Positions 22,231 through 40,088 of a stretch of DNA of 64,000 nt are shown piece after piece. Under the pieces are notes generated by a model. That model saw only the letters and a program-made list of their open reading frames with translations. It was not told the origin of the DNA and searched no databases. Numbering within the stretch: position 1 is the stretch's first letter; every line of letters starts with the position of its first letter. The stretch comes from an uncultured Gammaproteobacteria bacterium (GTDB lineage Bacteria; Pseudomonadota; Gammaproteobacteria; Steroidobacterales; Steroidobacteraceae). The position numbers and the translations under genes were made by a program. Where the stretch lies: contig CAVVBV010000029.1 of assembly GCA_963746545.1 (NCBI GenBank), positions 210,163 through 274,162 of the forward strand, given 5' to 3'.

Positions 22231-22737
22231 TCATTTCCCCGCGATGCTCAATCGCGATTCCGCGTACTTCTCAAGCTCCCCGCGCCGCGTGTAGCCCTCG
22301 ACGCGCAGGCGATAGATCCCGTTCGGCAGCATCGACGTGTTGAATCCGAGGTGCAGCTCGCCGTTGGAGTCGAGCGCGAGGCGTTCGGCGTGCAGCAGCG
22401 CCGTGCCGTCGTCGCGCGACAGCGCAATGCGGTAGCGGTCGAAACGATCGCTGGTCACGGCGATCGCGAGGTCGACGCGGGTGGCGAAGCCGCCGGCGTC
22501 GATGCCGGTCAGGCGGCCGGCACGCGGATCGACGTGGACCGTCCGGGTCGAGGAGGGTGGCTGCAGGAAGCCGACCGCGGCCTGGGCCTGCATCATCGTC
22601 ATGCGATCCAGGGCGACATTCCAGCGCCAGGCGGTCCAGATGAGCGCCACGACCAGGACGAAGATCAGGATCGCGCCCCCTGCCAGGACCTGCGGTTTCT
22701 GGTACCTGGCCATCCATTCGGGATATTCGATTTCCAT
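22231..22737 (-). CDS. Membrane-anchored hypothetical protein
   Basis: 168 aa from MEIEYPEW. One TM helix (GGAILIFVLVVALIWTAW) and a beta-rich C-terminal domain. Only this 3' part of track ORF 22231..23649 looks protein-like. Co-directional with the PaaK-like gene. Confidence 0.45.
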   Translation of the reverse strand: MEIEYPEWMARYQKPQVLAGGAILIFVLVVALIWTAWRWNVALDRMTMMQAQAAVGFLQPPSSTRTVHVDPRAGRLTGIDAGGFATRVDLAIAVTSDRFDRYRIALSRDDGTALLHAERLALDSNGELHLGFNTSMLPNGIYRLRVEGYTRRGELEKYAESRLSIAGK

Positions 22738-22799
22738 TGACCCAACTCCGTGGCCCGCTGCGTTTATTCTATGCGTCCAGAGACCGAGGAGAGCCCGAC

Positions 22800-24331
22800 A
22801 TGACTTCGTTGTCTGCCCGAGTTCACATTTTGCTGGCCGGCAGCCTGATCGCCGCCTGCGCCCTGGCGGCCGAGCCCCAGACGGCGCTGACCGTCTACAG
22901 TTCCGCGCAACCGGGCGGCATCCCGGCCGAGTGGTATCGCCCGCTGCCCGGCATGGGCACGCCGCAGGCGAGTTCCCTGCCCGGATTCGCGCTGGTGCGC
23001 GTGGACCGGGATCTCGACCTCGACGCGCGGACGGAGCAAGTTGCAGTTCACGGACGTCGCCGCGCTGATCGACCCGACGACCGTGCAGTTCCGTTCGCTG
23101 ACCGATCCCAACGGCACGAAGGTGCTGGAGCAGAATTTCCAGTTCGACCTGGTCAGCACCGAGAAGCTGCTGTCGCGCTACGTGGACCGCAAGGTCAGCG
23201 TCGAGAGCCAGCAGGGCGACGGCGTCAAGCTGACCGAAGGCACGCTGCTCTCGGCGAATGACGGGCTGGTGCTGCGCGGCGACGACGGCCAGATCCATGC
23301 GCTGCGCAACTGGAGCGGCATGCAGTTCGGCGAACTGCCGGGCGGGCTGATCACGCGGCCGACGCTCGAATGGGACATCCTCGCCGCGAAGGCCGGCACG
23401 CATCGCGCGCGCGTCTCGTACCAGACCGGCGGCATCACCTGGTGGGCGGACTACAACCTGGTTTTCACCGAAGGCGCGGACGCGAATTCCGGCTTCGTGG
23501 ACGTGGGCGCCTGGGTGAGCCTGCTGAACCAGTCCGGCGCGAGTTACCAGGACGCGAAGCTCAAGCTGATCGCGGGCGACGTCAATCGCGTGCAGCCGGG
23601 CACGGGAGGCATCATGCCGGCGGCACAGCGCGCGAAAGGTCTTCGACATGGCCGCGGATGCCCCCGGCTTCGAGGAGAAATCCTTCTTCGAATATCACCT
23701 GTACACGCTGGGCCGGCCCGCGACGCTTCCCAACAACTCGACCAAGCAGATCGAGCTCTTCGACGCGGCAACGCGGGTGCCGGCGAAGAAGCAGCTCGTG
23801 TACTACGGCGCGGAGGGTTATGGCTTCTACGGCGACCTGGTACTCGACCGGGATTTCGGCCCGACCTCCAACACGAAAGTGGACGTGTGGCTCACGCTCA
23901 AGAACGACAAGGCCTCGGGCCTCGGCATGCCGTTGCCTGCCGGGCGCATCCGCGTCTCGCAGCAGGACAAGGCCGACGGCAGCATGGAGTTCATCGGCGA
24001 GGACAAGATCGACCACACGCCCAAGGACGAGGACGTGCGGGTCAAGCTCGGCACGGCCTTCGACGTGGTCGGCGAGCGCCGCCAGACCGATTTCGCGCTG
24101 AACTCGAAAGGCCGCGTCATGGAAGAGGCCTTCGAGATCAAGGTCCGCAACCACAAGGACCAGGCGGTCGACGTGGTCGTGCGCGAGAACCTCTATCGCT
24201 GGAGCAAGTGGACATTGATCCAGCAGTCCACGCCATCCGAGAAGAAGGACGCGCGCACCATCGAGTTCCCGGTGCGGATCGCGCCGGACGGCGAGGCGAT
24301 CGTCACCTACCGGGTGCGTTACACCTGGTGA
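22800..24331 (+). pseudogene. DUF4139-family secreted protein interrupted by two +1 frameshifts
   Basis: Three collinear pieces lie in three frames. (1) Signal peptide MTSLSARVHILLAGSLIAACALA... to ~23028. (2) ...LQFTDVAALIDPTTVQFRSL... to ~23635. (3) ...FFEYHLYTLGRPATLPNNSTKQIELF...VTYRVRYTW to 24331. Confidence 0.6.
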
Positions 24332-25140
24332 GCTTCGAGGGTCAGCGGCGCGCCGACCGCGATCGTCTCGCCGACGCCTTCGACCAGGACGCAGTTCTGG
24401 CCGAAGGCGACGCCATGCAGCTTGCGGTCGTGACGATAGGTCTTCAGCGTGCGCAGCGGCTCCTGCTGCGGATCGCGCGAACCGTTCTTCTGGTCGGTGG
24501 TCGTGATCGAGCAGCGCGTGCAATGCTTGACGCCGCGCAGCACGATGTTGCCGGAGCGGAATGAGATCATCGCGTCTTCCGCGTACGGCGCGACGCCCTC
24601 GATGACGACATTGGGCCGGAAGCGCGCCATCGGGACCGGCTTCGGCAGGCGGCTGTTCAGTTCCGCGAGCGATTCGCGGGAAATCATCAGCACCGGGTAG
24701 CCGTCCGTGAAGGTCACGGGTTGCGGCTTCGGGCCCGCGTATTCGGGATTGGCGAGCCGCGGCGCCCGCTCGTCGAACCGCATGAGCCGGTAGTTTCCGC
24801 CGAGCACGCGGAACAGCCATGCCGCGGCCTCGTCGCCGGCATCGATGCCGTTGCAATGGTCCTTCCAGATCCGCACAGGCCGCGTGGCGCCGCTCGCATG
24901 CGCGTCCACCGTGAGCGTCGAATGCCCCTCGGCGGACAATTCGAGCCGGCCGCCGGCGATCGCGGTCGTGATGGTCGCGAGCTTCGCATGCTCGCGCTGC
25001 GTCACGAAGTGATCCTTGCCGTCCACGATCATCCAGCGCCGGTCCCATTCGAGGCCGGTCGGCGTCAGGAGCGCCGTGGCGACATCGATGCCGCGGCAGG
25101 ACTTGACCGGATAGATGTGCAGGCTCGCGATGCTGGCCAT
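24319..25140 (-). CDS. MOSC domain protein (YcbX-like N-terminal beta-barrel plus MOSC)
   Basis: 273 aa. MASIASLHIYPVKSCRG... N-terminus and a C-terminal ...GVKHCTRCSITTTDQ... MOSC Cys block. Confidence 0.8.
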   Translation of the reverse strand: MASIASLHIYPVKSCRGIDVATALLTPTGLEWDRRWMIVDGKDHFVTQREHAKLATITTAIAGGRLELSAEGHSTLTVDAHASGATRPVRIWKDHCNGIDAGDEAAAWLFRVLGGNYRLMRFDERAPRLANPEYAGPKPQPVTFTDGYPVLMISRESLAELNSRLPKPVPMARFRPNVVIEGVAPYAEDAMISFRSGNIVLRGVKHCTRCSITTTDQKNGSRDPQQEPLRTLKTYRHDRKLHGVAFGQNCVLVEGVGETIAVGAPLTLEAHQV

Positions 25141-27945
25141 TCAGGGGCTCGACTTTAGCGCGAAGTCGAAACTGCCGTAGTGCAGGTAGTTGGCCCAGTC
25201 GGCGGAGGGCAGTTCGCGAACCGCGGCGCGCGCGGCATTGAGCGCCACGCCGATCGAGCTGCCGCCGGCCAGCTCGCGGTAGAGCAGCGTCGCAAAGGCC
25301 GTGGCGCCGGCATCCGACACCGGCCACCAGGTGCCGATGAAGTTCGCGACGCCGCCGCGCAGGAAGGCCTCGGCAAATCCGACGCTGCGGTCGAGTTGCC
25401 GCAGCGGCTTGACGGCGCTGCGCAGCCTGCCGGATTCGCAGGCGTTGAAGAACACGAGCGCCGGCACGGAATCCATCGCGGCGAGGTCGCCGCCGGACAG
25501 GACGCGGCCGCCCGCGCACAGGATGCCGCTCGAAGCGGGTGCGGCGGAATCGAAGAACGCGTGACCGGCGAAGTGAATCGCGTCGTAGTCGCCGGAGCGG
25601 AATTCCGCGAGCAGCCGCGCGCGCGTCGCCTCGCCGCCGCGGATTGCCGTGATGCCGGTGCCCGGCAGGCGCGTCAGCATCTGCGCGACGCGCTCGCCTT
25701 CCTCGATTGCGCCCGGCAGGTCGCCGGTCGGATTGATGACCAGGAGCACGTTGAGGCCGCGCTCGCGCCGGCGCTGCTCGCGCCACTTGGCGACCGACAT
25801 CCCCTCGGCCGCATAACGCCGGCTCAATCCGGCCTCCGCGGCGGGCGCCCAGCCCTTGATGCTGAGCGCCTCCCAGGGCCAGTGCGCGCCGGCGCTGTCG
25901 TGCACGACGACGAGCGGCGCCTCCTTCACCGCGGGGAGCGCCGCGACGATTTCCTCCGGCAGCAGCAGCTCCGCGAGGCGTTCGCCGAAATCCTCGAGTT
26001 CCGCGATCGGCATGCCGGGCTCGAGGCGCGCGTGCTCGCGTTCGAGCGCGCGCAGGTCGAGCCGCCGGATCGCGGTCAGCGCGGTCGCCTTCGGCGCCGT
26101 GCCAAGGAGCGCCGCGTGCATCTGGCCGGCGGATTCCTGCACGAAAAGCCAGGCGAGCGGTGTGGCGGTCGGCTTGATCACCCGGCTGGGCTTGCGCGCC
26201 GCCTTGCGCGCCGGCTGCAGGCGCAGGAGCGGCGCTGCCGGATGCAGGCGCAGCAGGTCTTCCGCGACCCGGCGCGCGGCGGAGAGCCTGCGCGCATTGC
26301 GCGACAGGATCGTGATGCGCCGCAGCCGCAGTTCCGGCGAGAGATCCGACAGCGCGGTCAGCACGCCCTCGAGCTGGGCGCGAGCGGCATCGGCGGCATC
26401 GGCGCCGGAGGCAGTGCCCCACAGCACCATCGCAAAGTCGCCGACGCCGGCGAGCGCGAGCGTGCGCGTGACATTCGCGGCGGCGAGGCGCTGCACGTCC
26501 GGCCCGTAGCGCCCGAAGTCGCCGAGGCCCGCGAGCACGACCAGCCGCGCCGCGAGCCCGCGCCGGCCGACGGGCAATACGAATACTTCTCCGGCCGCGG
26601 CGCCGATCGCGCGCCGGCGCGACAGGTCGCCGATTGCGCCGTGCAGCATCGTGTCGACGGCAAGCGCCGCGCCCGCCGGCTCGACATTGGCAAACGCGCC
26701 GAGTACGAGCGCGGATGCCTGGCTCTGGGTGATGCTGCCCTCGACGAAGGCGAGTTCGACCGGCCGGGCCTGCCCGCCGCTCCGCGCGACGGGCGTGGCG
26801 CTGGTCGCGGGATCCGCGACGGCGACGAACTCGTGCAGGAATTCGCGTTGCTGCCGTTCGGACAGGTCACTCCAGGCAATCTTGACGGGCGTCGGCGCAC
26901 GGGTGTCCGTTTCCCACAGCGTCGGCACGCCGCGGCGGCGCGGCAGCACGTGCGGCAGCACCTCGGTCGTATCGCCCCGCGCGAGGTCGATGACGGCGCG
27001 GCCGACGTCCGCGTTGCCGGGCAGCGAGCCATGGCTTTCCTCGACGTACCAGGTCGGCATGCCGGGCCAATGCGCGAGTGCGAGCGGCACCGTGCCGTCT
27101 CCCGCCGGCCCGCGGCCGAACTCCAGGCGCTGCGAGAGCCGTTTGACGCCGAGAACCGTGTCCTGGCCGAAACCGGCGATCAGGCGGAATCGTTCGTCGG
27201 GCGGCGGCAGCGTCTCGAGCGTGCGGCGCGCATTGGTCAGCAGGCTTTGCGCGGGATTCGGCCCCTTGGGCCACTGCGCCGCGTCGAAGGGATCGAAATC
27301 CTTGCAGGCGGCGGCTGGCGGCAGCAGTTCACAGAGTCCCGGGAATGTCGTCAGCACCCGGCTCGCGATGTCGTCGGCATCGTGCAGGAGATCCAGCATC
27401 GCCAGGCGCCGGATCAGCGGATAAGTCCCGCGCAGCGCCTGGACAGCGACGAACGCGCCGCGATTGGGCGCGCCGAGCTGGATCACGCGCGTGATTCGTT
27501 CAGCGCCTTTCTGGGCGAGTGCGGCGCGCGCGACCAGTCCGCCCAGGCTGTGGCCGACGAGGATGACTCCCTGGCGCCGTTCGCCGACCAGGCGTTCCGC
27601 CAGCACGCGCCCGTTGGCGGAAAGGTCGAGGCGCCAGTCATAAGGATGGAAAGCGGCGTCGTAGCCGGCGATCCTGAGCACGAGGCGCAGCCGTTCGTAG
27701 GCGAATCGCAGGACGCCGAGCGGCCCGTAGCGGCGGCCGCCGGGCAGCGCGAGTTTCCTCAGGCCGCCGGCCGCGATCTCCAGCGGGTCGAACCACTTGA
27801 TGTCGTCCAGCATGCCCTTGCGCGGGCGGCCGAGCGTCGAGCCCATGATGCCCGGCAGGATCAGCACGCGCGGCCCGCCGCGCATGCCCGCCGCCCGCCG
27901 GGCGAGCCGCGACAGTTCCTGGTCCGCTTCGAGATAGGACGACAT
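25141..27945 (-). CDS. 934-aa multidomain protein: lipase/LCAT-like alpha/beta-hydrolase, macro-like (M17 N-terminal-like) middle region, C-terminal CHAT (caspase-like) protease
   Basis: The N-terminal ~330 aa has GHSLGG (Ser ~133), GDGTVP and ESHGSLP. The middle region (aa ~400-560) resembles the leucyl-aminopeptidase N-terminal/macro fold (...LVVLAGLGDFG...). The C-terminal region has the CHAT dyad pattern YDAIHFAGHA (His ~795) and LVFFNACESG (Cys ~836). Confidence 0.75.
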   Translation of the reverse strand: MSSYLEADQELSRLARRAAGMRGGPRVLILPGIMGSTLGRPRKGMLDDIKWFDPLEIAAGGLRKLALPGGRRYGPLGVLRFAYERLRLVLRIAGYDAAFHPYDWRLDLSANGRVLAERLVGERRQGVILVGHSLGGLVARAALAQKGAERITRVIQLGAPNRGAFVAVQALRGTYPLIRRLAMLDLLHDADDIASRVLTTFPGLCELLPPAAACKDFDPFDAAQWPKGPNPAQSLLTNARRTLETLPPPDERFRLIAGFGQDTVLGVKRLSQRLEFGRGPAGDGTVPLALAHWPGMPTWYVEESHGSLPGNADVGRAVIDLARGDTTEVLPHVLPRRRGVPTLWETDTRAPTPVKIAWSDLSERQQREFLHEFVAVADPATSATPVARSGGQARPVELAFVEGSITQSQASALVLGAFANVEPAGAALAVDTMLHGAIGDLSRRRAIGAAAGEVFVLPVGRRGLAARLVVLAGLGDFGRYGPDVQRLAAANVTRTLALAGVGDFAMVLWGTASGADAADAARAQLEGVLTALSDLSPELRLRRITILSRNARRLSAARRVAEDLLRLHPAAPLLRLQPARKAARKPSRVIKPTATPLAWLFVQESAGQMHAALLGTAPKATALTAIRRLDLRALEREHARLEPGMPIAELEDFGERLAELLLPEEIVAALPAVKEAPLVVVHDSAGAHWPWEALSIKGWAPAAEAGLSRRYAAEGMSVAKWREQRRRERGLNVLLVINPTGDLPGAIEEGERVAQMLTRLPGTGITAIRGGEATRARLLAEFRSGDYDAIHFAGHAFFDSAAPASSGILCAGGRVLSGGDLAAMDSVPALVFFNACESGRLRSAVKPLRQLDRSVGFAEAFLRGGVANFIGTWWPVSDAGATAFATLLYRELAGGSSIGVALNAARAAVRELPSADWANYLHYGSFDFALKSSP

Positions 27946-27971: not shown

Positions 27972-29579
27972 ATGGAAAGCATGACGCACCGCACCGCGCA
28001 CGCAGATTCATTCGCGCGCGACCGCCTGCCACCCATTGACCAATGGCCACGGCTGCATTTCGACCTGCCGGAACTGCGTTATCCGGAGCGCCTGAACTGC
28101 GCGACCGTGCTGCTGGATGACGCGATCGCCGAAGGCCATGGCGAACGGCCCGCGATCCTGACCGACGCCGGCAGCATCAGTTACCGGTCATTGCTCGCCC
28201 GCGCGAACCGCGTCGCAAACGTCCTGCAGGCCGCGGGCGTCGTGCCCGGCAACCGGGTGCTGCTGCGCGGCTACAACAGCCCCGAGCTCTACGCCTGCTG
28301 GCTCGGCGTGATGAAGGCGGGCGCGATCGCCGTGACGACCATGCCCCTGCTGAGGGCGCCCGAACTGACCGCGATCATTGTGAAGAGCCAGCCGGCGGTC
28401 GCCCTCTGCGACCACCGGTTGCTGGCCGAGTTGCGCGCGGCGGTCGAGGTGACGGGCATCGTCGGAGAAATCCTGGCCTGGGGCAATGGAGAGCTCGAGG
28501 ACCGGATGGCCGCAGTCCCGCAGCAGTTTGCGAACATCGACACCGCTTCGGACGACGTGTGCCTGCTCGCCTTCACTTCCGGCACGACCGGCCAGCCCAA
28601 GGCCTGCATGCATTTCCACCGCGACGTGCTGGCGATGGCCGACGTCGTCGCGCGCCACCTGCTGCACACGAAGCCGGACGATGTCTACGCCGGCAGCCCG
28701 CCGCTGGGCTTCACCTTCGGGCTCGGGGCGCTCCTGGTATTTCCCTTCCGATTCCGCGCAGCGGTCGCACCGGTCGAGGCGCCGGCGCCCGCGGCACTGC
28801 TCGCCACGATCGAGCGGCACAAGGTGACCTGTCTCTTCACGGCGCCCTTCGCCTACCGCGCACTGATGACCGAACTGGAGGGGCGCGACATCGGTTCGCT
28901 GCGCCAGTGCGTGTCCGCGGGAGAATTCCTGCCGAGCGCCGTCTCGGACGCCTGGAAGGAGCGCACCGGCATCCGGATCATCGACGGCATCGGCGCAACC
29001 GAGATGATCCACATTTTCATTTCGGCAGCCGGCGACGAGATCCGGCCGGGCGCGACGGGGAAGCCATTGCCCGGCTACACGGCCTGTGTGCTCGATGACG
29101 AAGGCCGACCGATGCCGGCCGGCAGCATCGGGCGCCTGGCCGTCACGGGACCGACCGGCTGCCGCTACCTGGACGACGAACGCCAGCGCGACTATGTGCA
29201 GTACGGCTGGAACCTGACCGGCGACCTGTACCGCGTGGACGAGGACGGCTATTTCTGGTTCGTCTCCCGCGCCGACGACATGATCGTCTCGGCCGGCTAC
29301 AACATCGCCGGTCTCGAGGTCGAATGGGCGCTCCTCGCCCATCCCGCAGTGCGCGAATGCGCGGTCGTCGGCGCTCCGGACGCCCTGCGCGGCACGGTCG
29401 TGAAGGCCTTTGTCGTGATCCAGCCGGGGAGGGCGGCGGACGAAGCGCTCGCGCGCGAGCTGCAGGAGTTCGTCAAGCAGCGCATAGCACCCTACAAGTA
29501 CCCGCGCCTGGTCGAGTTCCTCGAGGCGCTGCCGAAGACGCCGACGGGCAAGCTGCAGCGCAAGGCCCTGAGAAAATAA
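27972..29579 (+). CDS. 2-aminobenzoate/benzoate-CoA ligase-like AMP-dependent synthetase
   Basis: 535 aa. FTSGTTGQPKACMH adenylation motif, YRVDEDGYFWFVSRADDMI and a C-terminal PKTPTGKLQR. The neighbours are 2-aminobenzoyl-CoA pathway genes. An alternative start is ATG 27981. Confidence 0.75.
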   Translation: MESMTHRTAHADSFARDRLPPIDQWPRLHFDLPELRYPERLNCATVLLDDAIAEGHGERPAILTDAGSISYRSLLARANRVANVLQAAGVVPGNRVLLRGYNSPELYACWLGVMKAGAIAVTTMPLLRAPELTAIIVKSQPAVALCDHRLLAELRAAVEVTGIVGEILAWGNGELEDRMAAVPQQFANIDTASDDVCLLAFTSGTTGQPKACMHFHRDVLAMADVVARHLLHTKPDDVYAGSPPLGFTFGLGALLVFPFRFRAAVAPVEAPAPAALLATIERHKVTCLFTAPFAYRALMTELEGRDIGSLRQCVSAGEFLPSAVSDAWKERTGIRIIDGIGATEMIHIFISAAGDEIRPGATGKPLPGYTACVLDDEGRPMPAGSIGRLAVTGPTGCRYLDDERQRDYVQYGWNLTGDLYRVDEDGYFWFVSRADDMIVSAGYNIAGLEVEWALLAHPAVRECAVVGAPDALRGTVVKAFVVIQPGRAADEALARELQEFVKQRIAPYKYPRLVEFLEALPKTPTGKLQRKALRK

Positions 29580-29580
29580 G

Positions 29581-29639
29581 CTGTAATTCACGGTTTTCGC
29601 GCGATTACTTGACATATAAATGATATAGGCCTGTAATTC
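29581..29639 (+). promoter_or_regulatory. Sigma70-like promoter with flanking direct repeat CTGTAATTC (candidate MarR operator)
   Basis: TTGACA (29609-29614), a 17-nt spacer, then TGTAAT (29632-29637). The 9-mer CTGTAATTC occurs at 29581-29589 and 29631-29639, the second copy overlapping the -10. This is a locally AT-rich intergenic region. Confidence 0.45.
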
Positions 29640-29659
29640 TCCCGGCACTCGGGGGTCCC

Positions 29660-31944
29660 TTGAAGAGAATCGTCTGCCTGGGCGGCGGCCCTGCCGGCCT
29701 GTACTCGGCCATCCTGTTCAGGAAGACGCTGCCGCGCGCGCGGGTCGAGGTCTACGAGCGCAATCGCCCGGACGACACCTTCGGCTGGGGCGTCGTGTTC
29801 TCCGACCGGACCATGGAAGGGTTCCGCGTCGCCGATGCGCCGACCCACGAGGCGATCACGGCCGGCTTCCATCATTGGGACGACATCGACGTCCATTACC
29901 GCGGCACGACCATCACGCACGGGCGGCCACGGCTTCTGCGGCATCAGCCGCAAGCGCCTGCTGAACATCCTGCAGGAGAGGGCGGCCGGACTCGGCGTCC
30001 ACCAGAGTTTCGAGCACGAGGTCGAAGACGATGCGCCCTACGCGGACGCGGACCTCGTCATCGCCGCCGACGGTGTCAACAGCAGGACCCGCACGCCGCC
30101 ACGCGGCTGTCTTCGAGCCGGACATCGACGTGCGCCAGTGCCGCTTCATCTGGCTCGGCACGAAGCAGTCCTTCCCGGCCTTCACCTTCGCCTTCGAGAA
30201 GACCGAGCACGGCTGGTTCCAGATCCACGCCTACCAGTTCAGCAGCGATCTCTCGACCGTGATCGTCGAGACCCGCGAGGAGACCTGGCGCGCGCACGGG
30301 CTCGACAAGTTCGACCACAGGCAGTCGATCGCATTCTGCGAAAAGCTGTTCGGCAGGTATCTCGGCGGCCATCCGCTGATGAGCAACGCCTTGCACCTGC
30401 GCGGCTCGGCCTGGCTCAACTTCAACCGCGTGCGGTGCAAGCGCTGGCATCACCGCAACCTGGTGCTGATCGGCGACGCCGCGCACACGGCGCATTTCTC
30501 GATCGGCTCGGGCACGAAGCTTGCGATGGAGGACGCGATCGAGCTCACCGCGCGCGTCGCGCATGCGACCGACGTGCCGGCGGGCCTCGTGCGCTACCAG
30601 GAGGAGCGCTCGCTGGAGGCGCTGAAGCTGCAGAGCGCGGCGCGCAACCGGATGCGCTGGTTCGAGGAAGTCGCGCGCTACGTGAACTTCGAGCCCTGGC
30701 AGTTCACCTACAGCCTGCTGACCGGCAGCCAGCGCATCGGCCACGAGAACCTGCGGCTGCGCGACCCGGGTTTCGTGCGCGACGTCGAGACGAAGCTCGC
30801 GGCACAGGCGGGGGCGCCGTCGCCGCGGCCGCCGATGTTCCTGCCCTTCACGCTTCGCGGCATGAAGGTGGAGAACCGCGTCGTCGTCTCGCCGATGGCG
30901 CAGTACCTCGCGAAGGACGGCATGCCCGATGACTGGCACCTCGTGCATCTCGGCGCGCGCGCGACCGGCGGGGCGGGGCTCGTGTTCACCGAGATGACCT
31001 GCGTGTCGCCGGAAGGCCGCATTTCGCCCGGCTGCACGGGTCTCTGGAACGAGGCGCAGCGCGAAGCCTGGCGGCGCATCGTGGACTTCGTGCACGGTGC
31101 GAGCCCCGCGAAGATCTGCCTGCAGCTCGGGCATTCCGGCCGCAAGGGCTCGACGCAGCTCGGCTGGGAGGAATCCGATCATCCCTTGCCGTCCGGCAAC
31201 TGGGAGACGATCGCGCCGTCGGCCATACCTTATTACGAAGGCATCAGCGCGCCGCCACGTGCGATGACGCGCGCGGACATGGACAAGGTGCTCGCCGATT
31301 ACCTGCGCGCGACGCGCCATGGCGCCGAGGCAGGCTTCGACATGCTGGAACTGCACATGGCGCACGGTTACCTGCTGGCGAGTTTCCTGTCGCCGCTGAC
31401 CAACCGGCGCGCGGACGAATACGGCGGGGTGCTCGCTAATCGCCTGCGCTTCCCGCTGGAGATCCTCGCGGCCGTGCGCAAGGCCTGGCCGGCCGACAAG
31501 CCGCTCTCCGTGCGCCTGTCGGCGAGCGACTGGGCTGACGGCGGCCTGCGCGAGGAGGAGCTGCTCGACATCGCGCGCGCGATGAAGGCCGCCGGCGCCG
31601 ACGCCCTCGACCTGTCGAGCGGCCAGACCGTGCCCTGGCAGAAGCCGGTGTACGGGCGCATGTGGCAGACGCCGTTCTCGGACCAGGTCCGGAACCTCGT
31701 CGGCATCCCGACCATCGCGGTCGGCAACATCTACGAGCCGGATCACGTGAACTCGATCGTGGCCTCGGGTCGCGCGGATCTCTGCGCGCTCGCGCGGCCG
31801 CACCTGGCGGATGCGGCCTGGACGCTGCATGCCGCGGCCGCACAGGGCTATCGGGAGCAGTGGTGGCCGAAGCCCTACGAGACGGCGCGGCGCCAGCTCG
31901 AGCGCAATCTCGAGCGCGCAGCGCAGATGGCGGGGCCGGTCTGA
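29660..31944 (+). pseudogene. 2-aminobenzoyl-CoA monooxygenase/reductase-like flavoprotein (FAD monooxygenase plus OYE-type reductase) with two +1 frameshifts
   Basis: Piece 1: [15 protein letters not shown]...HYRGTTIT, to ~29922. Piece 2: [18 protein letters not shown]...ADGVNSRTR, to ~30095. Piece 3: [21 protein letters not shown]... continuing into the OYE-like C-terminal half, to 31944. Each break can be explained by one extra G or C. Confidence 0.7.
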
Positions 31945-32435
31945 TGCCGCGCACGGCAACCGACGTCGAGACCCGCGTCGCGAGCGACGACCACGCGGCG
32001 ATCCGGCTGTGGCTGCGCATGCTCGCGACCAACCGGCTGATCGAGACGCGCACGCGGCGCCTGTTGCATGAACGGTTCACGACGACGCTGCCGCGCTTCG
32101 ACCTGATGGCGCAGCTCGAGCGCGTGCCGGGCGGGCTCAAGATGGGCGAGCTGTCGAAGCGCATGATGGTGACCGGCGGCAACGTCACCGGCATCACCGA
32201 CATGCTGGAACAGGAAGGCCTGGTCGAGCGCGTGGACGATCCCGACGACCGGCGCGCCTGGCTCGTCAGGCTGACGCCGGCCGGCCGGCGCACGTTCGCC
32301 GCGATGGCGCGCGAGCACGAGCGCTGGGTCGTCGAGGCATTCGGGGCCCTCGGCGCGCGCGAGAAGGCGGTGATGGCGGGCTTCCTCGGCCGCCTGAAGA
32401 CGCATGTTCGGTCACTGGAGGGGCGAGACGCATGA
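31944..32435 (+). CDS. MarR-family transcriptional regulator
   Basis: 163 aa from ATG 31944 (TGATG overlap). Winged-helix block ...[57 protein letters not shown].... Confidence 0.8.
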
Positions 32436-33235
32436 GCATCGAATCGGCAGAGCATTTCCTGTGGCGCGTCGAGGGCCGGGTCGGCCGGGTAACGCTGAAC
32501 CGTCCCGAGCGCAAGAACCCGCTGACCTTCAAGTCGTATGCGGAACTGCGCGACCTGTTCCGCGCGCTGACGACGGACAACGACGTGCGTGCGGTCATCA
32601 TCGACGGCGCGGGCGGGAACTTCTGCTCCGGCGGCGACGTGCACGAGATCATCGGGCCGCTGACGAAGATGAACAAGCCGGGGCTCCTGAACTTCACGCG
32701 CATGACCGGTGACCTGGTGCGCGCGATGCGTGCCTGCCCGCAACCGATCATCGCGGCCGTCGACGGCACCTGCGCCGGCGCCGGCGCCATCATCGCGCTC
32801 GCCTCGGATTTCCGCTTCGCGACGCCCGCCGCGCGCACCGCCTTCCTGTTCGTGCGCGTGGGACTCGCCGGCTGCGACATGGGCGCCTGCGCGATGCTGC
32901 CGCGCGTGATCGGCCAGGGCCGCGCCGCGGAACTCCTCTACACCGGGCGCTCGTTCACCGCGGAGGAGGGCGAACGCTGGGGCTTCTACAATTCGATCGT
33001 GCCGGCCGAGGGGCTGCTGCACGAGGCGATGAAACTCGCCGGCGAGATCGCCGCCGGCCCGACCTTCGCGCATGCGATGACGAAAAAGATGCTGCATCGC
33101 GAATGGAACATGGCGATCGACGAGGCGCTCGATGCGGAGTCGAAGGCGCAGGCCGTGTGCATGCAGACCGCCGATTTCAAGCGGGCTTATGAGGCTTTCT
33201 CCGCGAAGCGCAAGCCGGTTTTCGAGGGCAACTGA
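32432..33235 (+). CDS. Enoyl-CoA hydratase/isomerase family protein
   Basis: 267 aa. Crotonase blocks [21 protein letters not shown] and [16 protein letters not shown]. Confidence 0.85.
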
Positions 33236-36827: not shown

Positions 36828-37636
36828 ATTTATTTTATATATACTGATTTGCAGCGCAATAAAAATTTTGAACGGTGATGCTATAATATGTTTTAATGAA
36901 TGCAGACTTAATTAAATATAGTTGAAATTGTACATTATAGTGTAGCTGGTTGGGCAATATTGATGAAGATCTGCTACGGGAGACAGTATGTAGATGATCG
37001 GTGCGATAGCTGGTTCTCATTGTTGACATGCATAATATCTGTGATATTCGCGCTTGATTATTTAATTTTATTTAATAAAATTAATTAATATTAAATTTAA
37101 TTTTTTTATTTTTTTTTAAATTATAATTTAAAGCGTTGCGCTGATCGTAATATAATAATTTATTATTATAATTTATATTATTTTATATGATTTTTATAAT
37201 TATATTTTGATAAATATTGTAATGATTATTAATTACGATGACGAGGTTAAGATAGACTGGATGATAATAATATTATTAATATTATTATATTTTGATCGGT
37301 TGGCTCTGGTTGCATGCATGTTCATTCGCGCACGCGCTGCATGCGATCGATTCTACACGCATATGTTCCGAGTCGGCATCAGTACTTCGAATCTATTGCT
37401 ATTTCTCTCTCCCATGCAGACAAAGCGGCGCTGATCATTTTATAAATTTTTATATTATATATTATTAAATATATTATTAATTTATTAATAATATAAATAT
37501 ATATAATTTAATATATTAAATATAATATTATTATATTTATTATAAATTAAATATTATATATTATTATTATTTTATTTAAATATATTAATATATTTATATT
37601 TATTTATATCTGCGCTTGCGTGCTTTGTTATTAATC
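36828..37636. other. Extreme A+T-rich, largely non-coding island
   Basis: The composition flips relative to the flanks. There are G/C-free runs at 37057-37132 (76 nt), 37148-37188 (41 nt) and 37437-37609 (173 nt). Short GC-normal patches are interspersed. There is no convincing ORF, tRNA or transposase. Confidence 0.9.
36996..37436 (+). repeat. Two degenerate tandem copies of the 5' region of the downstream DoxX-like gene, each followed by an A/T-only spacer
   Basis: Copy 2 (37294-37436) shares collinear identical words with the gene copy (37633-37780): TCGCGCACGC, TCTACACGC, TCCGAGTCGGC, CAGTACTTCGAATC and GCATGTTCAT. Copy 1 (36996-37056 plus 37130-37146) shares GATCGGT, CTGGTT, CATGCAT, ATTCGCGC and the tail AAAGCG..GCGCTGATC. 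The period is about 290-345 nt. Confidence 0.6.
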
Positions 37637-37638
37637 GG

Positions 37639-38130
37639 GTGGCACTGGGCTGCATGTTCATCGCGCACGCCCTGCTGAAATGCGTCGTCTACACGCTGTC
37701 CGAGTCGGCCCAGTACTTCGAATCGCTCGGCATTCCGGGCTGGCGCATCGTGGGAGTTGATTATTGCTGTGCTGGTGTATTGCACATCTGGGTACTACGG
37801 AGATGGCAGCGGAGTGTTGGATTTGGACTTACGTCGCACGATATGCTGTTATGCTATTCCAGGTTGCTCGCGAATCTCGTCGGCATATCCGGGCTAGCAT
37901 CGCTGTCGCCTACGTCGTCACGATTCGTCGAGATCGTCGGTGGCACGGCTGGTGCTCGGCATCGTCACGCTGGGCTGCCCGCCGCTGCTGCCGGTGCTCC
38001 TGGGAACGCGTGGGTGCACTCGGAATGGCGGCTCTTCACCTCTCCGAATGGAAGGCTGGGAATGTTCTGGAGCCTGGGCGCGGCGACGTTCGGGCTCGTG
38101 GCGGGCTCGCAATTCGGGCGGCGCTCACTG
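37639..38130 (+). pseudogene. DoxX-family membrane protein remnant with multiple frame disruptions
   Basis: DoxX-like segments are scattered over three frames: VALGCMFIAHALLKCVVYTLSESAQYFESLGIPGW, ASIAVAYVVTI, VEIVGG, ARLVLGIVTLG.PPLLPVLLGT, WVHSEW.LFTSPNG, GWE and FWSLGAATFGLVAG. The middle part (about 37740-37900) is visibly AT-enriched. The 3' limit is approximate. Confidence 0.5.
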
Positions 38131-40088
38131 ATCGAGCGCGTGCAGGCCAACTCGTTCGTCGAGGCGCAGGCGGCAGGCGGTGCGCCGGGCGTGTGGGCGC
38201 CCGCACAGGAGCTGACCGTCAAGGAACTGCGCCCGCTGGTGGAACGATTCATCGGCAGCAACCGCGCGGCGCGGCATTTCGCGGATCTCGGCTGGCGGGG
38301 CGGCGAGGACGCGCGCGCGAGCGCCCAGCAGCTCGAGGCGACGCAGAAGCTGCTCGCATCGGTCCTGGGCGCGTCATCCGCGCAGCGCCTCGTGGACGTG
38401 GCTGTCGCCGGGCGCGAGGTGCCGCTCGAGGACGTCGTGTCGATCGTCGACGAGGCCTCGCAGGCGCTCGAGTTCAGCCATGAACTGTTGCAGTCGTCAT
38501 TGGAAAACGTCAGTCAGGGCATCAGCGTGGTCGACGCGGAGCTGCGGCTCGTCGCATGGAATCGCCGATACGCCGAGTTCTACAGGTACCCGCCAGGTTT
38601 CCTGCGCATTGGCCAGCCGATCGAGGAATTGCTGCGTTGCAACGCGGAGCGCGGCGAACTGGGACCTGGCGACACGGACGAGCTCGTCGCGCGACGGCTT
38701 GGCCATCTGCAACGCGGCACCCCCTATACTTTCCAGCGCACGCGCCTCGACGGCACCGTGCTCGAGATCCGCGGCAATCCGATGCCCGGCGGGGGTTTCG
38801 TCACGAGCTTTGCGGACGTCACCGAGTACAAGCGTGCGGAAGAGGCGCTCCGGGTCGCGAACGAGTCACTCGAGCAGCGCGTGCGCGAACGCACGCGGGC
38901 GCTGTCCGCGATGAACGACGAATTGCTGGCGGCGAAAGCGGAGGCCGAACGCGCGAATGCCGGCAAGACGCGCTTCCTGGCCGCCGCTGGCCACGACCTG
39001 ATGCAGCCGCTCAACGCCGCGGGCCTGTTTGCCGGCGCGCTCGCGCAGAAAAGCCGGGGCGCGGAACAGCGTGCGCTGCTCGCCGACCTCGAGGAATGCC
39101 TGCATTCCGCCGAGGGCCTGATCTCCGACCTGCTGGACATTTCGCGGCTCGACACCGGCGCGATGCGGACGCAGGTCATGGACGTGCCACTCGCCAGCGT
39201 CTTCGATGCGCTCGACGCCGAGTTCCGCCTGACGGCCGGCAAGAGGCGCATTGCGCTCGCGGTCCACAGGAGCCGCGCGATCGTGCATTCAGATCCGAAA
39301 TTGCTGCGGCGCGTGCTGCAGAACTTCGTTGGCAACGCGCTGCGCTACACGCCCGCCGGGCGCGTGGTCGTCGGCGTGCGGCGCCGCGGCGGGCGCGTTC
39401 GTGTCGAAGTTTGGGATACCGGCATCGGCATCACCCCGGAGCAGCAGCCGCATGTATTCGAGGAGTTCTACCGCGGCAGCGGCCGGCGCGACGCTGATGA
39501 CACGCGCGGCTTCGGTCTCGGACTCGCGATGCTGAGCTCATTGCGTGCGTGCTCGGGCATGCGGTCGGATTGCGCTCGACGCCCGGCCGCGGCTCGGTCT
39601 TCTGGATCGAAGTCGAACGTGGCCAGACAACCGCACCGGTCGCCATTCCCGAGCCGCGCCAGCGCCCGACGGGTGCGCTGGCCGGCATCCGCGTGTTGTG
39701 CATCGACAACGACTCGGCGGCGCTCAGGGGCCTTGCCACATTGCTGAATTCCTGGGGCTGCGAAACGCTCGCGGCGCCGGGCATCGAGGACCTGGTTGAG
39801 CACCGGCGCCTGCAGGGCTTCCGGCCGCATGTCATCGTCGTGGACTACCATCTCGAAGGCGGCGTCACGGGACTCGATGTCGTACAGCATCTGCGCGCGG
39901 TCGAAGGCATTCGTGCGCCGGTGCTCGCGGTGTCGGCGGACGCGAGCGATTCCGTGCGCGCGGAGGCAGAGGCATTGGATTGCGTGTTCCTGCGCAAGCC
40001 CCTGAAGCCGCTCGCGGTGCGTAGCGCGCTTGCGCGACTGCTGGAAACTGCCCGGCCCGCCGCCAGTGACGACGCGGCGGCCTTGTGA
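38131..40088 (+). pseudogene. Hybrid sensor histidine kinase/response regulator (PAS-HisKA-HATPase-REC), apparently lacking its N-terminal sensor/membrane module, with a -1 frameshift
   Basis: PAS-like ...VSQGISVVDAELRLVAWNRRYAEFYRYPPG...EIRGNPMPGGGFVTSFADVTEYKRAEEAL. H-box FLAAAGHDLMQPLN, N-box NFVGNALRYTP, G1 VWDTGIGI, G2 GFGLGLA. The frame breaks at ~39529. It then continues AELIACVLGHAVGLRSTPGRGSVFWIEV plus a REC domain (VVDYHL...LRKPLKP). There is no own start codon or RBS; it is in frame with the DoxX remnant. The 5' limit is approximate. Confidence 0.6.

What the first reader, a model, noticed from the sequence alone, without database searches (positions are those of the whole stretch)
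25141..27945. Single 934-aa protein combining a lipase-like hydrolase, a macro-like module and a CHAT caspase-like protease
All catalytic signatures appear intact: GHSLGG plus the Asp/His blocks for the hydrolase, and HFAGH plus FNACESG for CHAT. CHAT proteases are known as signal-activated effectors in prokaryotic conflict and abortive-infection systems, including those associated with type III CRISPR and NTPase-based systems. Macro-like folds commonly bind nucleotide-derived ligands. A ligand-sensing module flanked by two different degradative effectors (lipid or ester, and protein) would be a self-contained suicide or defence effector. I am not aware that this architecture has been characterised. 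The gene is intact although several neighbours are decaying.
Basis: partly seen in the sequence, partly recalled or inferred. Interest (0 to 1): 0.65.

Follow-up and report, generated by a model that had tools for sequence, protein, structure and literature searches.

The report
Fused phospholipase, macro-fold and CHAT protease
One intact 934-residue bacterial protein joins a membrane-lipid-cutting enzyme, a macro-fold module and a caspase-like protease; it belongs to a large, uncharacterised family that looks like a self-contained, protease-triggered cell-suicide or immunity effector, although this copy sits in an ordinary, stably inherited chromosomal site.

Summary
ORF 25141..27945 (-) encodes 934 aa with three modules:
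- an LCAT/PLA2G15/Tle4-like alpha/beta-hydrolase (Ser133-Asp283-His305);
- a macro-fold module of the M17-aminopeptidase N-domain type (about 394-572);
- a CHAT protease (His795, Cys836).
All catalytic residues are conserved from close relatives to copies in other phyla.

The family is large (1,041 clusters at E<=1e-30). Its constant core is macro-like+CHAT. The effector position varies. Fused to the core I found this lipase (most members), a TIR domain or a C14 caspase. Encoded immediately downstream of lipase-less short forms I found PLD-like, SIR2_2-pYEATS or C14 caspase genes, in four of eight lineages. The same lipase module is also fused to a trypsin-like protease.

The best reading is a single-chain version of the known caspase and alpha/beta-hydrolase zymogen pairing: an activated protease licenses a lipase.

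Caveats:
- Ligand sensing by the macro-like module is unproven; its closest sequence relatives are not known to bind nucleotides.
- Most genomic contexts are ordinary.
- In the window's own lineage (Steroidobacteraceae) the gene is vertically inherited at a fixed metabolic locus with no defence genes nearby.

Verdict: a new variant of a known kind, uncharacterised experimentally. Interest 0.6.

The parts
25141..27945 (-). Whole gene: 934-aa hydrolase + macro-like + CHAT protein (stop codon 25141-25143)
   Evidence: ORF and translation; coding-type GC3 of 0.88; Pfam LCAT/PGAP1, Peptidase_M17_N and CHAT, all above cut-off; full-length orthologues of 59-96% identity
27880..27945 (-). N-terminal helix (residues 1-22), ending in the conserved Arg22 that precedes Gly23: a candidate propeptide and cleavage site
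   Evidence: Helix 2-18 in both models. An R/K-G dipeptide at 22-23 is conserved in 92-96% of diverse homologues. The related caspase cleaves its hydrolase at Arg|Gly sites. The cleavage is inferred, not shown.
26941..27879 (-). Alpha/beta-hydrolase module (residues 23-335), LCAT / lysosomal PLA2 / Tle4-like lipase. Triad Ser133 (27547-27549), Asp283 (27097-27099), His305 (27031-27033)
   Evidence: Pfam LCAT and PGAP1; triad invariant; AlphaFold model pLDDT 94.6, pTM 0.93; Foldseek best hits PLA2G15 4x95 (E 2e-10), LCAT, Tle4 4r1d and the BlEst2 lipase; codons verified
26767..26940 (-). Linker 1 (residues 336-393): variable, Arg-rich and mostly low-confidence in the model, with one conserved helix (DLSERQQREFLHEF, model helix 363-374)
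   Evidence: Low pLDDT at 338-358 and 367-392; 27% mean identity across phyla against 53-56% for the modules; W358, D360, L361, F369, L370, E372 and F373 invariant in close homologues
26230..26766 (-). Macro-fold module of the M17-aminopeptidase N-domain type (residues 394-572), with conserved Gly-rich loops
   Evidence: Pfam Peptidase_M17_N, E 7e-10; Foldseek hits to PepA, YmdB, MacroD+ADPR, macroH2A, AF1521 and TTHA0132; profile against PDB gives M17 N-domains at E 3e-4 to 3e-3 and AF1521 at E 0.07; conserved motifs
26155..26229 (-). Linker 2 (residues 573-597): basic, variable, partly low-confidence in the model (LLRLQPARKAARKPSRVIKPTATPL)
   Evidence: pLDDT below 50 at 581-595; 30% identity across phyla
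25144..26154 (-). CHAT caspase-like protease (residues 598-934, including an N-terminal beta sub-domain 598-651). Dyad His795 (25561-25563) and Cys836 (25438-25440)
   Evidence: Pfam CHAT, E 3e-31; dyad motifs conserved in all homologues examined; PADLOC BovA (Borvo) partial match on 751-910; codons verified
24319..25140 (-). Adjacent MOSC_N+MOSC gene. Its ATG directly follows the TGA of the target (TGAATG). It is a neighbour and probably co-transcribed, but not an obligate partner
   Evidence: Pfam; junction sequence; syntenic in most of the close (72-96%) clade but absent in about seven relatives that keep the target

Best explanation
The gene encodes a soluble cytoplasmic, single-chain, protease-gated lipase of the kind used in prokaryotic conflict (abortive-infection or immunity) systems.

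- **Core.** The C-terminal CHAT caspase-like protease, together with the macro-fold (M17-N type) module always found in front of it, forms a conserved regulatory core.
- **Effector.** The N-terminal LCAT/PLA2G15/Tle4-like phospholipase is a latent effector held in the same chain.
- **Proposed sequence of events.** An unknown trigger acts on the macro-like module, either by binding of a small molecule (possibly NAD-derived) or by driving oligomerisation. This switches on CHAT. CHAT then cuts in cis or between subunits, at the basic flexible linkers and/or the conserved Arg22|Gly23 junction. That releases or unlocks the lipase, which attacks membrane lipids. CHAT may also cut other cell proteins. 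The result is death or dormancy of the cell.

**Shown here:** the three folds, the intact catalytic residues, equal purifying selection on all three modules, the variable effector position in the family, and the repeated fusion of this lipase to proteases.

**Inferred:** the trigger, the cleavage, the lipid substrate and the biological role. In Steroidobacteraceae the gene has become a stably inherited chromosomal gene, so its role there may be a domesticated one.
For: 1. **Folds and catalytic residues.**
2. **Toxin-like lipase.** The hydrolase's nearest solved relatives are phospholipases, including the T6SS toxin Tle4 and a propeptide-controlled lipase.
3. **Variable N-terminal position.** Of 150 family representatives, 107 are hydrolase+macro+CHAT and about 26 are macro+CHAT only. 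Other members carry TIR_2 or a C14 caspase in the N-terminal position, or an extra M64 peptidase.
4. **Effector genes beside short forms.** Four short-form lineages have a classical effector gene immediately downstream on the same strand: PLDc_2 (two lineages, 53 and 78 bp), Peptidase_C14 (264 bp), and SIR2_2-pYEATS (start overlapping the stop) followed by a LOG/SLOG-like gene.
5. **Same lipase, different protease.** The same lipase module (E 3e-95) is fused to a trypsin-like protease in Qingshengfaniella. So it is joined to proteases of two unrelated folds.
6. **Published precedent.** Caspase-superfamily proteases in conflict systems are always accompanied by an alpha/beta-hydrolase gene (PMC7159879). 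A caspase activates such a hydrolase zymogen by two Arg|Gly cuts, and this kills cells (PMC12642450).
7. **Candidate cleavage sites.** Arg22-Gly23 is conserved in 92-96% of homologues, and the linkers are variable, basic and largely low-confidence in the model.
8. **Some long forms lie in conflict islands.** Nitrospira defluvii: several TIR-domain genes, a Tle1-like lipase, an integrase and a transposase. L088: Tle1-like plus SIR2_2. The Rhizobium leguminosarum plasmid: SIR2_2-pYEATS plus a NucA nuclease.
9. **Patchy distribution.** Copies of 40-46% identity occur across many phyla.
Against: - The window's copy has no defence gene within about 20 kb either side.
- It sits at a locus conserved throughout the close (72-96%) Steroidobacteraceae clade (enoyl-CoA hydratase, flavoprotein, CoA ligase | target, MOSC, DUF4139). 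That means long vertical inheritance, which is unusual for defence genes.
- A census of 84 neighbours at 18 of the distant loci found no recurrent partner and mostly housekeeping families.
- Four of the eight annotated long-form contexts in other lineages are ordinary.
- Four further short-form lineages have no recognisable effector next door. One has queA downstream and one has a convergent nSTAND1.
- No copies were found on phage or viral contigs.
- No cleavage, toxicity or phage phenotype has been measured.
- The CHAT part of the full-length model is of low confidence.
- Homology of this lipase to the published LcHydrolase was not tested.
Confidence: 0.5

Rival explanations
1. The role is the same (a conflict or suicide effector), but the macro-like module is not a ligand sensor. 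As in M17 leucyl aminopeptidases, it is an oligomerisation or scaffold domain that brings CHAT domains together. The trigger would then be a protein or another cue (for example a phage protein, or cleavage by another protease), not a nucleotide.
For: - By sequence the module belongs with M17 N-domains (Pfam PF02789; profile against PDB E 3e-4 to 3e-3).
- Pfam Macro is not matched even at E<=1.
- From established knowledge, M17 N-domains serve hexamer contacts and DNA binding in PepA, and caspase-like proteases generally need dimerisation to become active.
- Most loci have no signal-generating partner gene.
Against: - Structurally the module matches ADP-ribose-binding macrodomains as well as it matches M17 N-domains.
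- It shows a weak profile signal to AF1521.
- Its most conserved positions are Gly-rich loops (VLGxFxxVxPxGxA, GLGxFD, TVLxGxxSG). From memory, these lie where macrodomains hold the phosphates; this was not tested.
- Family members are fused to TIR or adjacent to SIR2 and LOG/SLOG genes, all of which are NAD- or nucleotide-linked.
Confidence: 0.25
2. It is a housekeeping or physiological enzyme of Steroidobacteraceae and other soil and freshwater bacteria. It would be a regulated lipid- or ester-remodelling hydrolase whose CHAT domain handles maturation, turnover or substrate processing, with no role in conflict.
For: - Strict synteny and vertical inheritance across the close clade, next to metabolic genes.
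- Translational abutment with a MOSC gene.
- Strong, even purifying selection on all modules.
- No defence genes in the window.
- Mostly ordinary neighbours elsewhere.
- In one Nitrospira genome it lies beside polyhydroxyalkanoate synthesis genes and another lipase.
Against: - No neighbour is conserved across phyla, and MOSC is lost in several relatives that keep the gene.
- The N-terminal position is exchanged for TIR or a caspase, and PLD, SIR2 or caspase genes follow some short forms. That has no obvious housekeeping logic.
- The distribution is patchy across about a dozen phyla at 40-46% identity.
- Some copies lie in TIR, SIR2, NucA or integrase islands.
Confidence: 0.2
3. It is an exported antibacterial toxin (a Tle4-like phospholipase) delivered to competitors, with the CHAT domain acting as a self-processing or delivery module.
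For: - The lipase module resembles the T6SS effector Tle4.
- Tle1-like lipase genes lie near family members in three loci.
Against: - There is no hydrophobic signal or transmembrane segment (highest Kyte-Doolittle 19-residue mean is 1.58).
- No secretion-system, PAAR/VgrG/Rhs or immunity gene is recognisable next to it in the window or in the sampled loci.
- The architecture lacks known trafficking domains.
Confidence: 0.05

Closest known systems
Caspase-like protease and alpha/beta-hydrolase zymogen modules of NTP-dependent conflict systems (Kaur et al. 2020, PMC7159879; Evans et al. 2025 preprint, PMC12642450: Lysobacter capsici LcCaspase/LcHydrolase)
   Same: - A caspase-superfamily cysteine protease is functionally tied to an alpha/beta-hydrolase with lipase-like affinities.
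- The published pair works by Arg|Gly cleavage of a latent hydrolase, which then kills the cell.
- Here there is a conserved Arg22-Gly23, the linkers are basic, and the same logic would apply.
   Different: - Here the two are fused in one chain and separated by a macro-fold module. In the published systems they are separate genes, and the protease is fused to STAND, vWA-MoxR or beta-propeller sensors.
- No such sensor is present in the window.
- The hydrolase here is about 310 residues and LCAT/PLA2G15/Tle4-like.
- Homology to LcHydrolase was not tested because its sequence was not on hand.
Borvo (BovA), a single-gene CHAT-domain anti-phage system (PADLOC model PDLC03832)
   Same: It is a stand-alone gene with a CHAT protease. 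The BovA model is the best PADLOC hit (E 4e-9).
   Different: The match covers only the CHAT core (query 751-910, profile positions 512-667 of 711). BovA's remaining regions are not matched, and the lipase and macro-like modules have no counterpart in that model.
Thoeris type II (Macro-domain effector senses His-ADPR) and type IV (caspase-like protease ThsE activated by N7-cADPR) (bioRxiv 10.1101/2024.10.24.620036 and 10.64898/2025.12.03.692087)
   Same: - A macro fold acts as receptor of an NAD-derived signal in type II, and a caspase-like executioner is switched on by such a signal in type IV.
- Family members here are fused to TIR or sit among TIR genes.
   Different: - No TIR gene accompanies the window's gene or most relatives.
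- The macro-fold module is of the M17-N type, not Pfam Macro.
- The type IV caspase uses a different, C-terminal sensor domain.
- No ligand is known here.
SAVED-CHAT and Craspase (TPR-CHAT) of type III CRISPR-Cas
   Same: A CHAT protease is used as a signal-activated protease that cleaves a downstream effector (mentioned).
   Different: There is no SAVED or TPR module. The PADLOC SAVED_CHAT hit is weak (E 2.6e-4) and confined to residues 856-924. There is no CRISPR-Cas nearby.
M17 leucyl aminopeptidases (PepA)
   Same: The middle module is homologous to the M17 N-terminal macro-like domain, and it likewise sits N-terminal to a peptidase domain.
   Different: The peptidase that follows is a CHAT cysteine protease, not the M17 metallo-exopeptidase domain. 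NCBIfam aminopeptidase models score 11-16 bits against cut-offs above 400.
LCAT, lysosomal phospholipase A2 (PLA2G15) and the T6SS phospholipase Tle4
   Same: They give the best structural matches to the N-terminal module (E 2e-10 to 9e-9). The Ser-Asp-His triad and the GxSxG nucleophile elbow are shared.
   Different: Sequence identity is only 15-19%. The module is cytoplasmic and fused to regulatory and protease modules. It has no secretion context.

Membership tests
CHAT / caspase-like (clan CD) cysteine proteases | Match to Pfam PF12770 above the curated cut-off | tested here: met
   109.5 bits against a cut-off of 24, E 3e-31, profile positions 2-289 of 289
CHAT / caspase-like (clan CD) cysteine proteases | Catalytic His then Cys dyad, conserved | tested here: met
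   His795 (HFAGH) and Cys836 (FNACES) are invariant in the 33 close homologues. The motifs are also conserved in the 25 distant copies.
CHAT / caspase-like (clan CD) cysteine proteases | Caspase-haemoglobinase fold in a confident model | tested here: inconclusive
   In the full-length model, pLDDT is below 50 for 796-807, 811-827 and 835-876.
CHAT / caspase-like (clan CD) cysteine proteases | Proteolytic activity | not testable with these tools
   Needs biochemistry
LCAT / PLA2G15 / PGAP1-type alpha/beta-hydrolase lipases | Pfam LCAT or PGAP1 above the curated cut-off | tested here: met
   LCAT 30.3 bits (cut-off 21); PGAP1 28.3 bits (cut-off 24.3)
LCAT / PLA2G15 / PGAP1-type alpha/beta-hydrolase lipases | Ser-Asp-His triad in canonical order with a GxSxG elbow | tested here: met
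   Ser133 in GHSLGG, Asp283 and His305 are invariant across 64 diverse sequences
LCAT / PLA2G15 / PGAP1-type alpha/beta-hydrolase lipases | Structural similarity to solved members | tested here: met
   The model has pLDDT 94.6. Foldseek gives 4x95 PLA2G15 at E 2e-10 (TM 0.58/0.54), LCAT at E 2e-9, and Tle4 at E 9e-9.
LCAT / PLA2G15 / PGAP1-type alpha/beta-hydrolase lipases | Lipid or ester hydrolysis | not testable with these tools
   Needs an enzyme assay
Macro fold, M17-aminopeptidase N-domain family (PF02789) | Pfam PF02789 above the curated cut-off | tested here: met
   39.3 bits against a cut-off of 23.4, E 7e-10, profile positions 1-118 of 129. The family is also precomputed on nearly all homologues.
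Macro fold, M17-aminopeptidase N-domain family (PF02789) | Macro-type three-layer fold | tested here: met
   All top-50 Foldseek hits fall on this module. TMt is 0.65-0.81 to stand-alone macrodomains.
ADP-ribose-binding macrodomains (Pfam Macro PF01661) | Sequence membership in PF01661 | tested here: not met
   No Macro hit even at E<=1. The profile against PDB reaches AF1521 only at E 0.07.
ADP-ribose-binding macrodomains (Pfam Macro PF01661) | Binding of ADP-ribose or a derivative | not testable with these tools
   Conserved Gly-rich loops are suggestive only
Borvo (BovA) | Full-length match to the PADLOC BovA model | tested here: not met
   Only profile positions 512-667 of 711 are matched, E 4e-9
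Caspase and alpha/beta-hydrolase zymogen module (Kaur 2020; Evans 2025) | Caspase-superfamily protease linked to an alpha/beta-hydrolase | tested here: met
   They are linked in cis in one polypeptide. The same hydrolase is also fused to a trypsin-like protease elsewhere.
Caspase and alpha/beta-hydrolase zymogen module (Kaur 2020; Evans 2025) | Hydrolase homologous to the published LcHydrolase family | not tested
Caspase and alpha/beta-hydrolase zymogen module (Kaur 2020; Evans 2025) | Conserved Arg|Gly cleavage sites in the hydrolase | tested here: inconclusive
   One family-wide R/K-G dipeptide lies in the hydrolase part (22-23, 92-96%). Cleavage was not shown.
Caspase and alpha/beta-hydrolase zymogen module (Kaur 2020; Evans 2025) | Protease fused or adjacent to a STAND, vWA-MoxR or repeat sensor | tested here: not met
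   None is present in the protein or the window. One short-form locus has a convergent nSTAND1 gene.
Thoeris (TIR-signalling systems) | TIR-domain gene in the same operon | tested here: not met
   There is no Thoeris or other TIR-system hit in the PADLOC scan of 32 window ORFs, and no TIR family among the 25 most frequent Pfam families of 84 neighbours. TIR genes were seen only in the Nitrospira island and as a fused variant.
SAVED-CHAT / type III CRISPR-associated proteases | SAVED or TPR sensor and a CRISPR-Cas neighbourhood | tested here: not met
   The SAVED_CHAT hit is confined to CHAT residues 856-924 at E 2.6e-4. No cas genes are nearby.

The most novel reading that the evidence does not exclude
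The M17-N-type macro fold is a previously unrecognised receptor class for an NAD-derived or other nucleotide signal (for example a product of the SIR2 or TIR enzymes found fused or adjacent in the family). Ligand binding switches on the CHAT protease. CHAT then licenses, in cis by Arg|Gly cleavage, a Tle4/LCAT-like phospholipase. In sister proteins it would license TIR, caspase, PLD or SIR2 effectors instead. That would define a new, widespread, single-chain sensor-protease-effector immune family. One branch of it has been domesticated as a stable chromosomal gene in Steroidobacteraceae.
Probability: 0.2. Interest if true: 0.8.

Novelty: new variant of a known kind. Interest (0 to 1): 0.6.

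Why it matters
- Protease-gated death effectors have recently emerged as a major design principle of bacterial immunity with parallels to eukaryotic caspase cascades. The known examples use separate genes and STAND, vWA or CRISPR-linked sensors.
- This family would show the whole circuit compressed into one polypeptide.
- It would give the macro-like N-domain of M17 aminopeptidases a role next to a different kind of protease.
- It would provide a natural series of swapped effectors (lipase, TIR, caspase, PLD, SIR2) for studying how one protease core licenses different killers.
- The family is large: 1,041 clusters at 50% identity with E<=1e-30.
- It occurs in cultured bacteria, for example on Rhizobium leguminosarum GLR17 plasmid p1, so it can be tested directly.
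- The stable, vertically inherited copy in Steroidobacteraceae raises the question of how a suicide-type module is kept safely as a long-term chromosomal gene.

Tried and rejected
- **Conserved partner gene.** Synteny across 80 genome loci, plus PADLOC and Pfam censuses of 84 neighbours of distant copies, found none. The MOSC gene that abuts the target is missing in about seven relatives, so I rejected it as an obligate partner.
- **Defence island in the window.** A PADLOC scan of 32 window ORFs gave only ABC-ATPase cross-hits and one weak CARF hit. Rejected.
- **Phage or viral origin.** There are no relatives in IMG/VR contigs or GenBank phage records.
- **RNA features.** No Rfam hits and no tRNAs in the window. 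No sigma-70-like promoter was found, and the one terminator-like site near the gene is no more than chance.
- **Sequence search of solved structures with the whole protein.** This gave only weak lipase hits. The module-wise structure approach was needed.
- **First full-length model.** It was too poor (pLDDT 61, pTM 0.35) to read domain packing or the CHAT active site. The second job went to the lipase module, so no improved CHAT model was made.
- **Second sample of short forms from metagenomes.** It did not reproduce the 'effector downstream' pattern. One lineage has queA downstream, one has a convergent nSTAND1, and two have nothing recognisable. I therefore report the pattern as about half of lineages, not a rule.
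- **'Decaying neighbours'.** I could not decide whether the frameshifts are real.
- **Literature.** Searches for this architecture found only related principles, not the fusion itself.

Full report
**1. The observation**

The ORF is exactly as described: 25141..27945 on the minus strand, 934 aa, ATG start, TGA stop. Its codon-position GC (0.75/0.53/0.88) matches real genes of this 68% GC window.

Pfam finds three regions, all above their curated cut-offs:
- LCAT and PGAP1-type alpha/beta-hydrolase, around residues 100-172;
- Peptidase_M17_N at 414-531 (E 7e-10);
- CHAT at 652-925 (E 3e-31).

In an alignment of 33 homologues (58-95% identity) the catalytic residues are all invariant:
- the hydrolase triad: Ser133 in GHSxGG, Asp283 in GDGTVP, His305 in SHG;
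- the CHAT dyad: His795 in HxAGH, Cys836 in FNACES.

The same motifs are kept in 25 copies of 40-46% identity. These come from a second Steroidobacteraceae clade and from MAGs labelled Nitrospira, Chloroflexota, Verrucomicrobia, Planctomycetes, Acidobacteriota, Myxococcota, Spirochaetes and others. L080 reads GDSTV at the Asp motif, and L072 is cut at its N-terminus.

The protein has no hydrophobic segment that would suggest export or membrane insertion.

**2. What the three modules are**

*N-terminal module.* Modelled alone with a 64-sequence alignment, it folds with high confidence (pLDDT 94.6, pTM 0.93). Its best matches among solved structures are:
- lysosomal phospholipase A2 (4x95, E 2e-10);
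- LCAT;
- the type VI secretion phospholipase toxin Tle4 (4r1d);
- the propeptide-controlled lipase BlEst2;
- classical bacterial lipases.

So 'lipase-like' is confirmed and narrowed to an LCAT/PLA2G15/Tle4-like phospholipase type.

*Middle module.* The full-length model was mediocre (pLDDT 61), but the middle module was modelled well enough. All 50 best Foldseek matches fall on it. They are macro-fold proteins or constructs containing a macro domain: M17 aminopeptidase N-domains, E. coli YmdB, Oceanobacillus MacroD with ADP-ribose, macroH2A, AF1521, a viral macro domain and TTHA0132.

A sequence profile of this module finds M17 N-domains first (E 3e-4 to 3e-3) and the true macrodomain AF1521 only at E 0.07. 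Pfam Macro is not matched. The module is therefore a macro fold of the M17-N type.

*Conservation.* The three modules are about equally conserved across phyla (54%, 53% and 56% mean identity). The two linkers are variable (27-30%), basic and largely of low model confidence.

**3. The family**

The exhaustive search of 1.84 billion cluster representatives gave 15,443 hits at E<=1e-3 and 1,041 at E<=1e-30.

I classified the best 150 with module HMMs:

| Architecture | Count |
|---|---|
| hydrolase + macro-like + CHAT | 107 |
| macro-like + CHAT only ('short forms'; most start with Met and a short basic tail) | about 26 |

Other members carry a TIR domain (P0378) or a C14 caspase (P0349) in the N-terminal position, unknown N-terminal regions, or an additional M64 peptidase. 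The constant core is thus macro-like + CHAT, and the N-terminal position is variable.

Short forms with readable contexts:

| Short form | Gene immediately downstream, same strand |
|---|---|
| P0400 and P0393 (two lineages) | PLD-like gene, 78 and 53 bp away |
| P0424 | C14 caspase gene, with a Tle1-like lipase beyond it |
| P0457 | SIR2_2-pYEATS gene whose start overlaps the stop, followed by a LOG/SLOG-like gene |

A second, independent sample from metagenomes did not repeat this. One lineage has queA 7 bp downstream, one has a convergent nSTAND1 NTPase, and two have nothing recognisable. So the pattern holds for about half of the short-form lineages seen.

The lipase module itself recurs with another class of protease. 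A Qingshengfaniella plasmid protein has the same module (E 3e-95 to my HMM) fused to a trypsin-like peptidase, without the macro-like or CHAT parts. A 1,789-aa Paracoccus yeei protein has the lipase and CHAT modules.

**4. Genomic context**

*The window.* The neighbours are metabolic:
- a divergent acyl-CoA ligase, 26 bp away;
- a 2-aminobenzoyl-CoA monooxygenase/reductase-like flavoprotein;
- an enoyl-CoA hydratase;
- a MOSC gene whose ATG directly follows the target's TGA;
- a convergent DUF4139 gene.

This arrangement is conserved in essentially all relatives of 72-96% identity, which are Steroidobacteraceae or unclassified gammaproteobacterial MAGs. Relatives of 58-60% identity keep DUF4139 nearby. 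MOSC is missing in about seven relatives. This is vertical inheritance at a fixed site. A PADLOC scan of 32 window ORFs found no defence system.

*Distant copies.* The copies of 40-46% identity share none of the window's immediate neighbours. The only conserved neighbours among them are within the second Steroidobacteraceae clade, and three of those loci have a DUF4139 gene 4-5 kb away. A census of 84 of their neighbours shows mostly ordinary families and only isolated defence-like hits.

*Annotated contexts of long forms in other lineages:*
- Conflict-type or mobile:
  - Nitrospira defluvii: several TIR-domain genes, a Tle1-like lipase, an integrase and a transposase;
  - L088: a Tle1-like lipase and a SIR2_2 gene;
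  - the Rhizobium leguminosarum GLR17 plasmid: SIR2_2-pYEATS and a NucA-type nuclease downstream;
  - one locus next to an integrase and a group II intron.
- Ordinary: four loci.

No copy was found on viral contigs or phage genomes.

**5. How it most likely works**

Two papers supply the closest principle:
- Kaur et al. noted that in NTP-dependent conflict systems a caspase-superfamily domain is always accompanied by a neighbouring alpha/beta-hydrolase gene (PMC7159879).
- Evans et al. showed that a Lysobacter caspase-like protease cuts its hydrolase partner at two Arg|Gly sites, and that the cut hydrolase kills cells (PMC12642450).

The present protein looks like that pair fused into one chain, with a macro-fold module attached to the protease. 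In favour of this reading:
- the effector position varies;
- this lipase is fused to two unrelated protease folds;
- its structural relatives are toxin-like;
- the linkers are flexible and basic;
- one Arg-Gly dipeptide in the hydrolase part is conserved family-wide (Arg22-Gly23, 92-96%), exactly between the N-terminal helix and the first strand of the lipase core.

I therefore propose that a trigger acts through the macro-like module, CHAT becomes active, it cuts the chain, and the lipase is unleashed. The folds, the residues and the comparative patterns are shown. The trigger, the cleavage, the substrate and the biological role are inferred.

The macro-like module might be a sensor. The links to TIR, SIR2 and LOG/SLOG genes, and the Gly-rich conserved loops, point to NAD-derived ligands. 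Or it might be an oligomerisation device as in M17 peptidases. I cannot decide between these.

A purely housekeeping role remains possible, chiefly because of the stable, ordinary context in the window's own lineage.

**6. Comparison and novelty**

The protein is a bona fide CHAT protease, an LCAT/PGAP1-type hydrolase and an M17-N-type macro fold by every feature I could test. It is not a member of:
- Borvo: only the CHAT core matches BovA;
- SAVED-CHAT or Craspase: no SAVED or TPR module, and no CRISPR nearby;
- Thoeris: no TIR partner.

It works most like the caspase and alpha/beta-hydrolase zymogen modules. It differs in being fused, in carrying the macro-fold module, and in lacking a STAND, vWA or repeat sensor. 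Public annotations call it only 'CHAT domain-containing protein', 'alpha/beta fold hydrolase' or 'pimeloyl-ACP methyl ester carboxylesterase'. I found no paper describing it.

I rate it a new variant of a known kind, with interest 0.6.

Noticed in passing
window 36828-37630: There are about 800 bp of extremely AT-rich, low-complexity DNA inside a 68% GC genome. It includes, at 37298-37400, an AT-enriched degenerate copy of the sequence at 37638-37730, which is the start of ORF 37639..39747. There is no tRNA and no Rfam match. It could be an assembly artefact, a chimeric join or a foreign insertion.
   Followed up: partly
window 22704-24331 (+): The DUF4139 gene is split over three reading frames, with breaks near 23021-23026 and 23646-23651. 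A relative whose target protein is 95% identical (L046) has one 589-aa ORF. The first break is a 1-nt insertion relative to three relatives. Real pseudogenisation and assembly indel errors could not be told apart.
   Followed up: partly
window 12037-14526 (+): This single 829-aa ORF corresponds to two separate genes (535 and 268 aa) in the close relative L046, with a frame change near 13724-13798. It is another possible indel or fusion in the window's sequence.
   Followed up: no
window 27972-33235 (+): A gene cluster lies divergent from the target: an AMP-forming CoA ligase, a FAD_binding_3+Oxidored_FMN flavoprotein and an enoyl-CoA hydratase. From memory, the flavoprotein has the domain pair of 2-aminobenzoyl-CoA monooxygenase/reductase. 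This suggests an aromatic (anthranilate-type) CoA-dependent degradation pathway. Only 26 bp separate the two divergent start codons.
   Followed up: no
L093 2287-3648; L176 11240-12232; L088 11299-13014: SIR2_2-pYEATS genes lie directly downstream of one short-form and one long-form family member in unrelated bacteria. A third locus has a weak SIR2_2 match with TPR repeats downstream. This is a possible recurrent functional partner of the macro-like+CHAT core.
   Followed up: partly
L081 3514-4719; L088 5420-6388; locus of P0424 (no DNA held) 9332-10513: T6SS_Tle1-like (DUF2235) lipase genes lie within a few kb of family members in three unrelated loci.
   Followed up: no
L177 5839-8358 (Qingshengfaniella alkalisoli plasmid, WP_168201372.1): This 840-aa protein joins the same LCAT-like lipase module to a C-terminal trypsin-like peptidase, through a roughly 200-residue region with no recognised domain.
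   Followed up: partly
L081 / L082 (Nitrospira defluvii), whole locus: This is a dense island of TIR-domain genes (TIR_2-AAA, ThsB_TIR-WD40, CAP12-PCTIR_TIR and a small TIR_2 protein), with a GDPD phosphodiesterase, a Tle1-like lipase, a transposase and, in L082, an integrase. It may hold further uncharacterised TIR systems.
   Followed up: no
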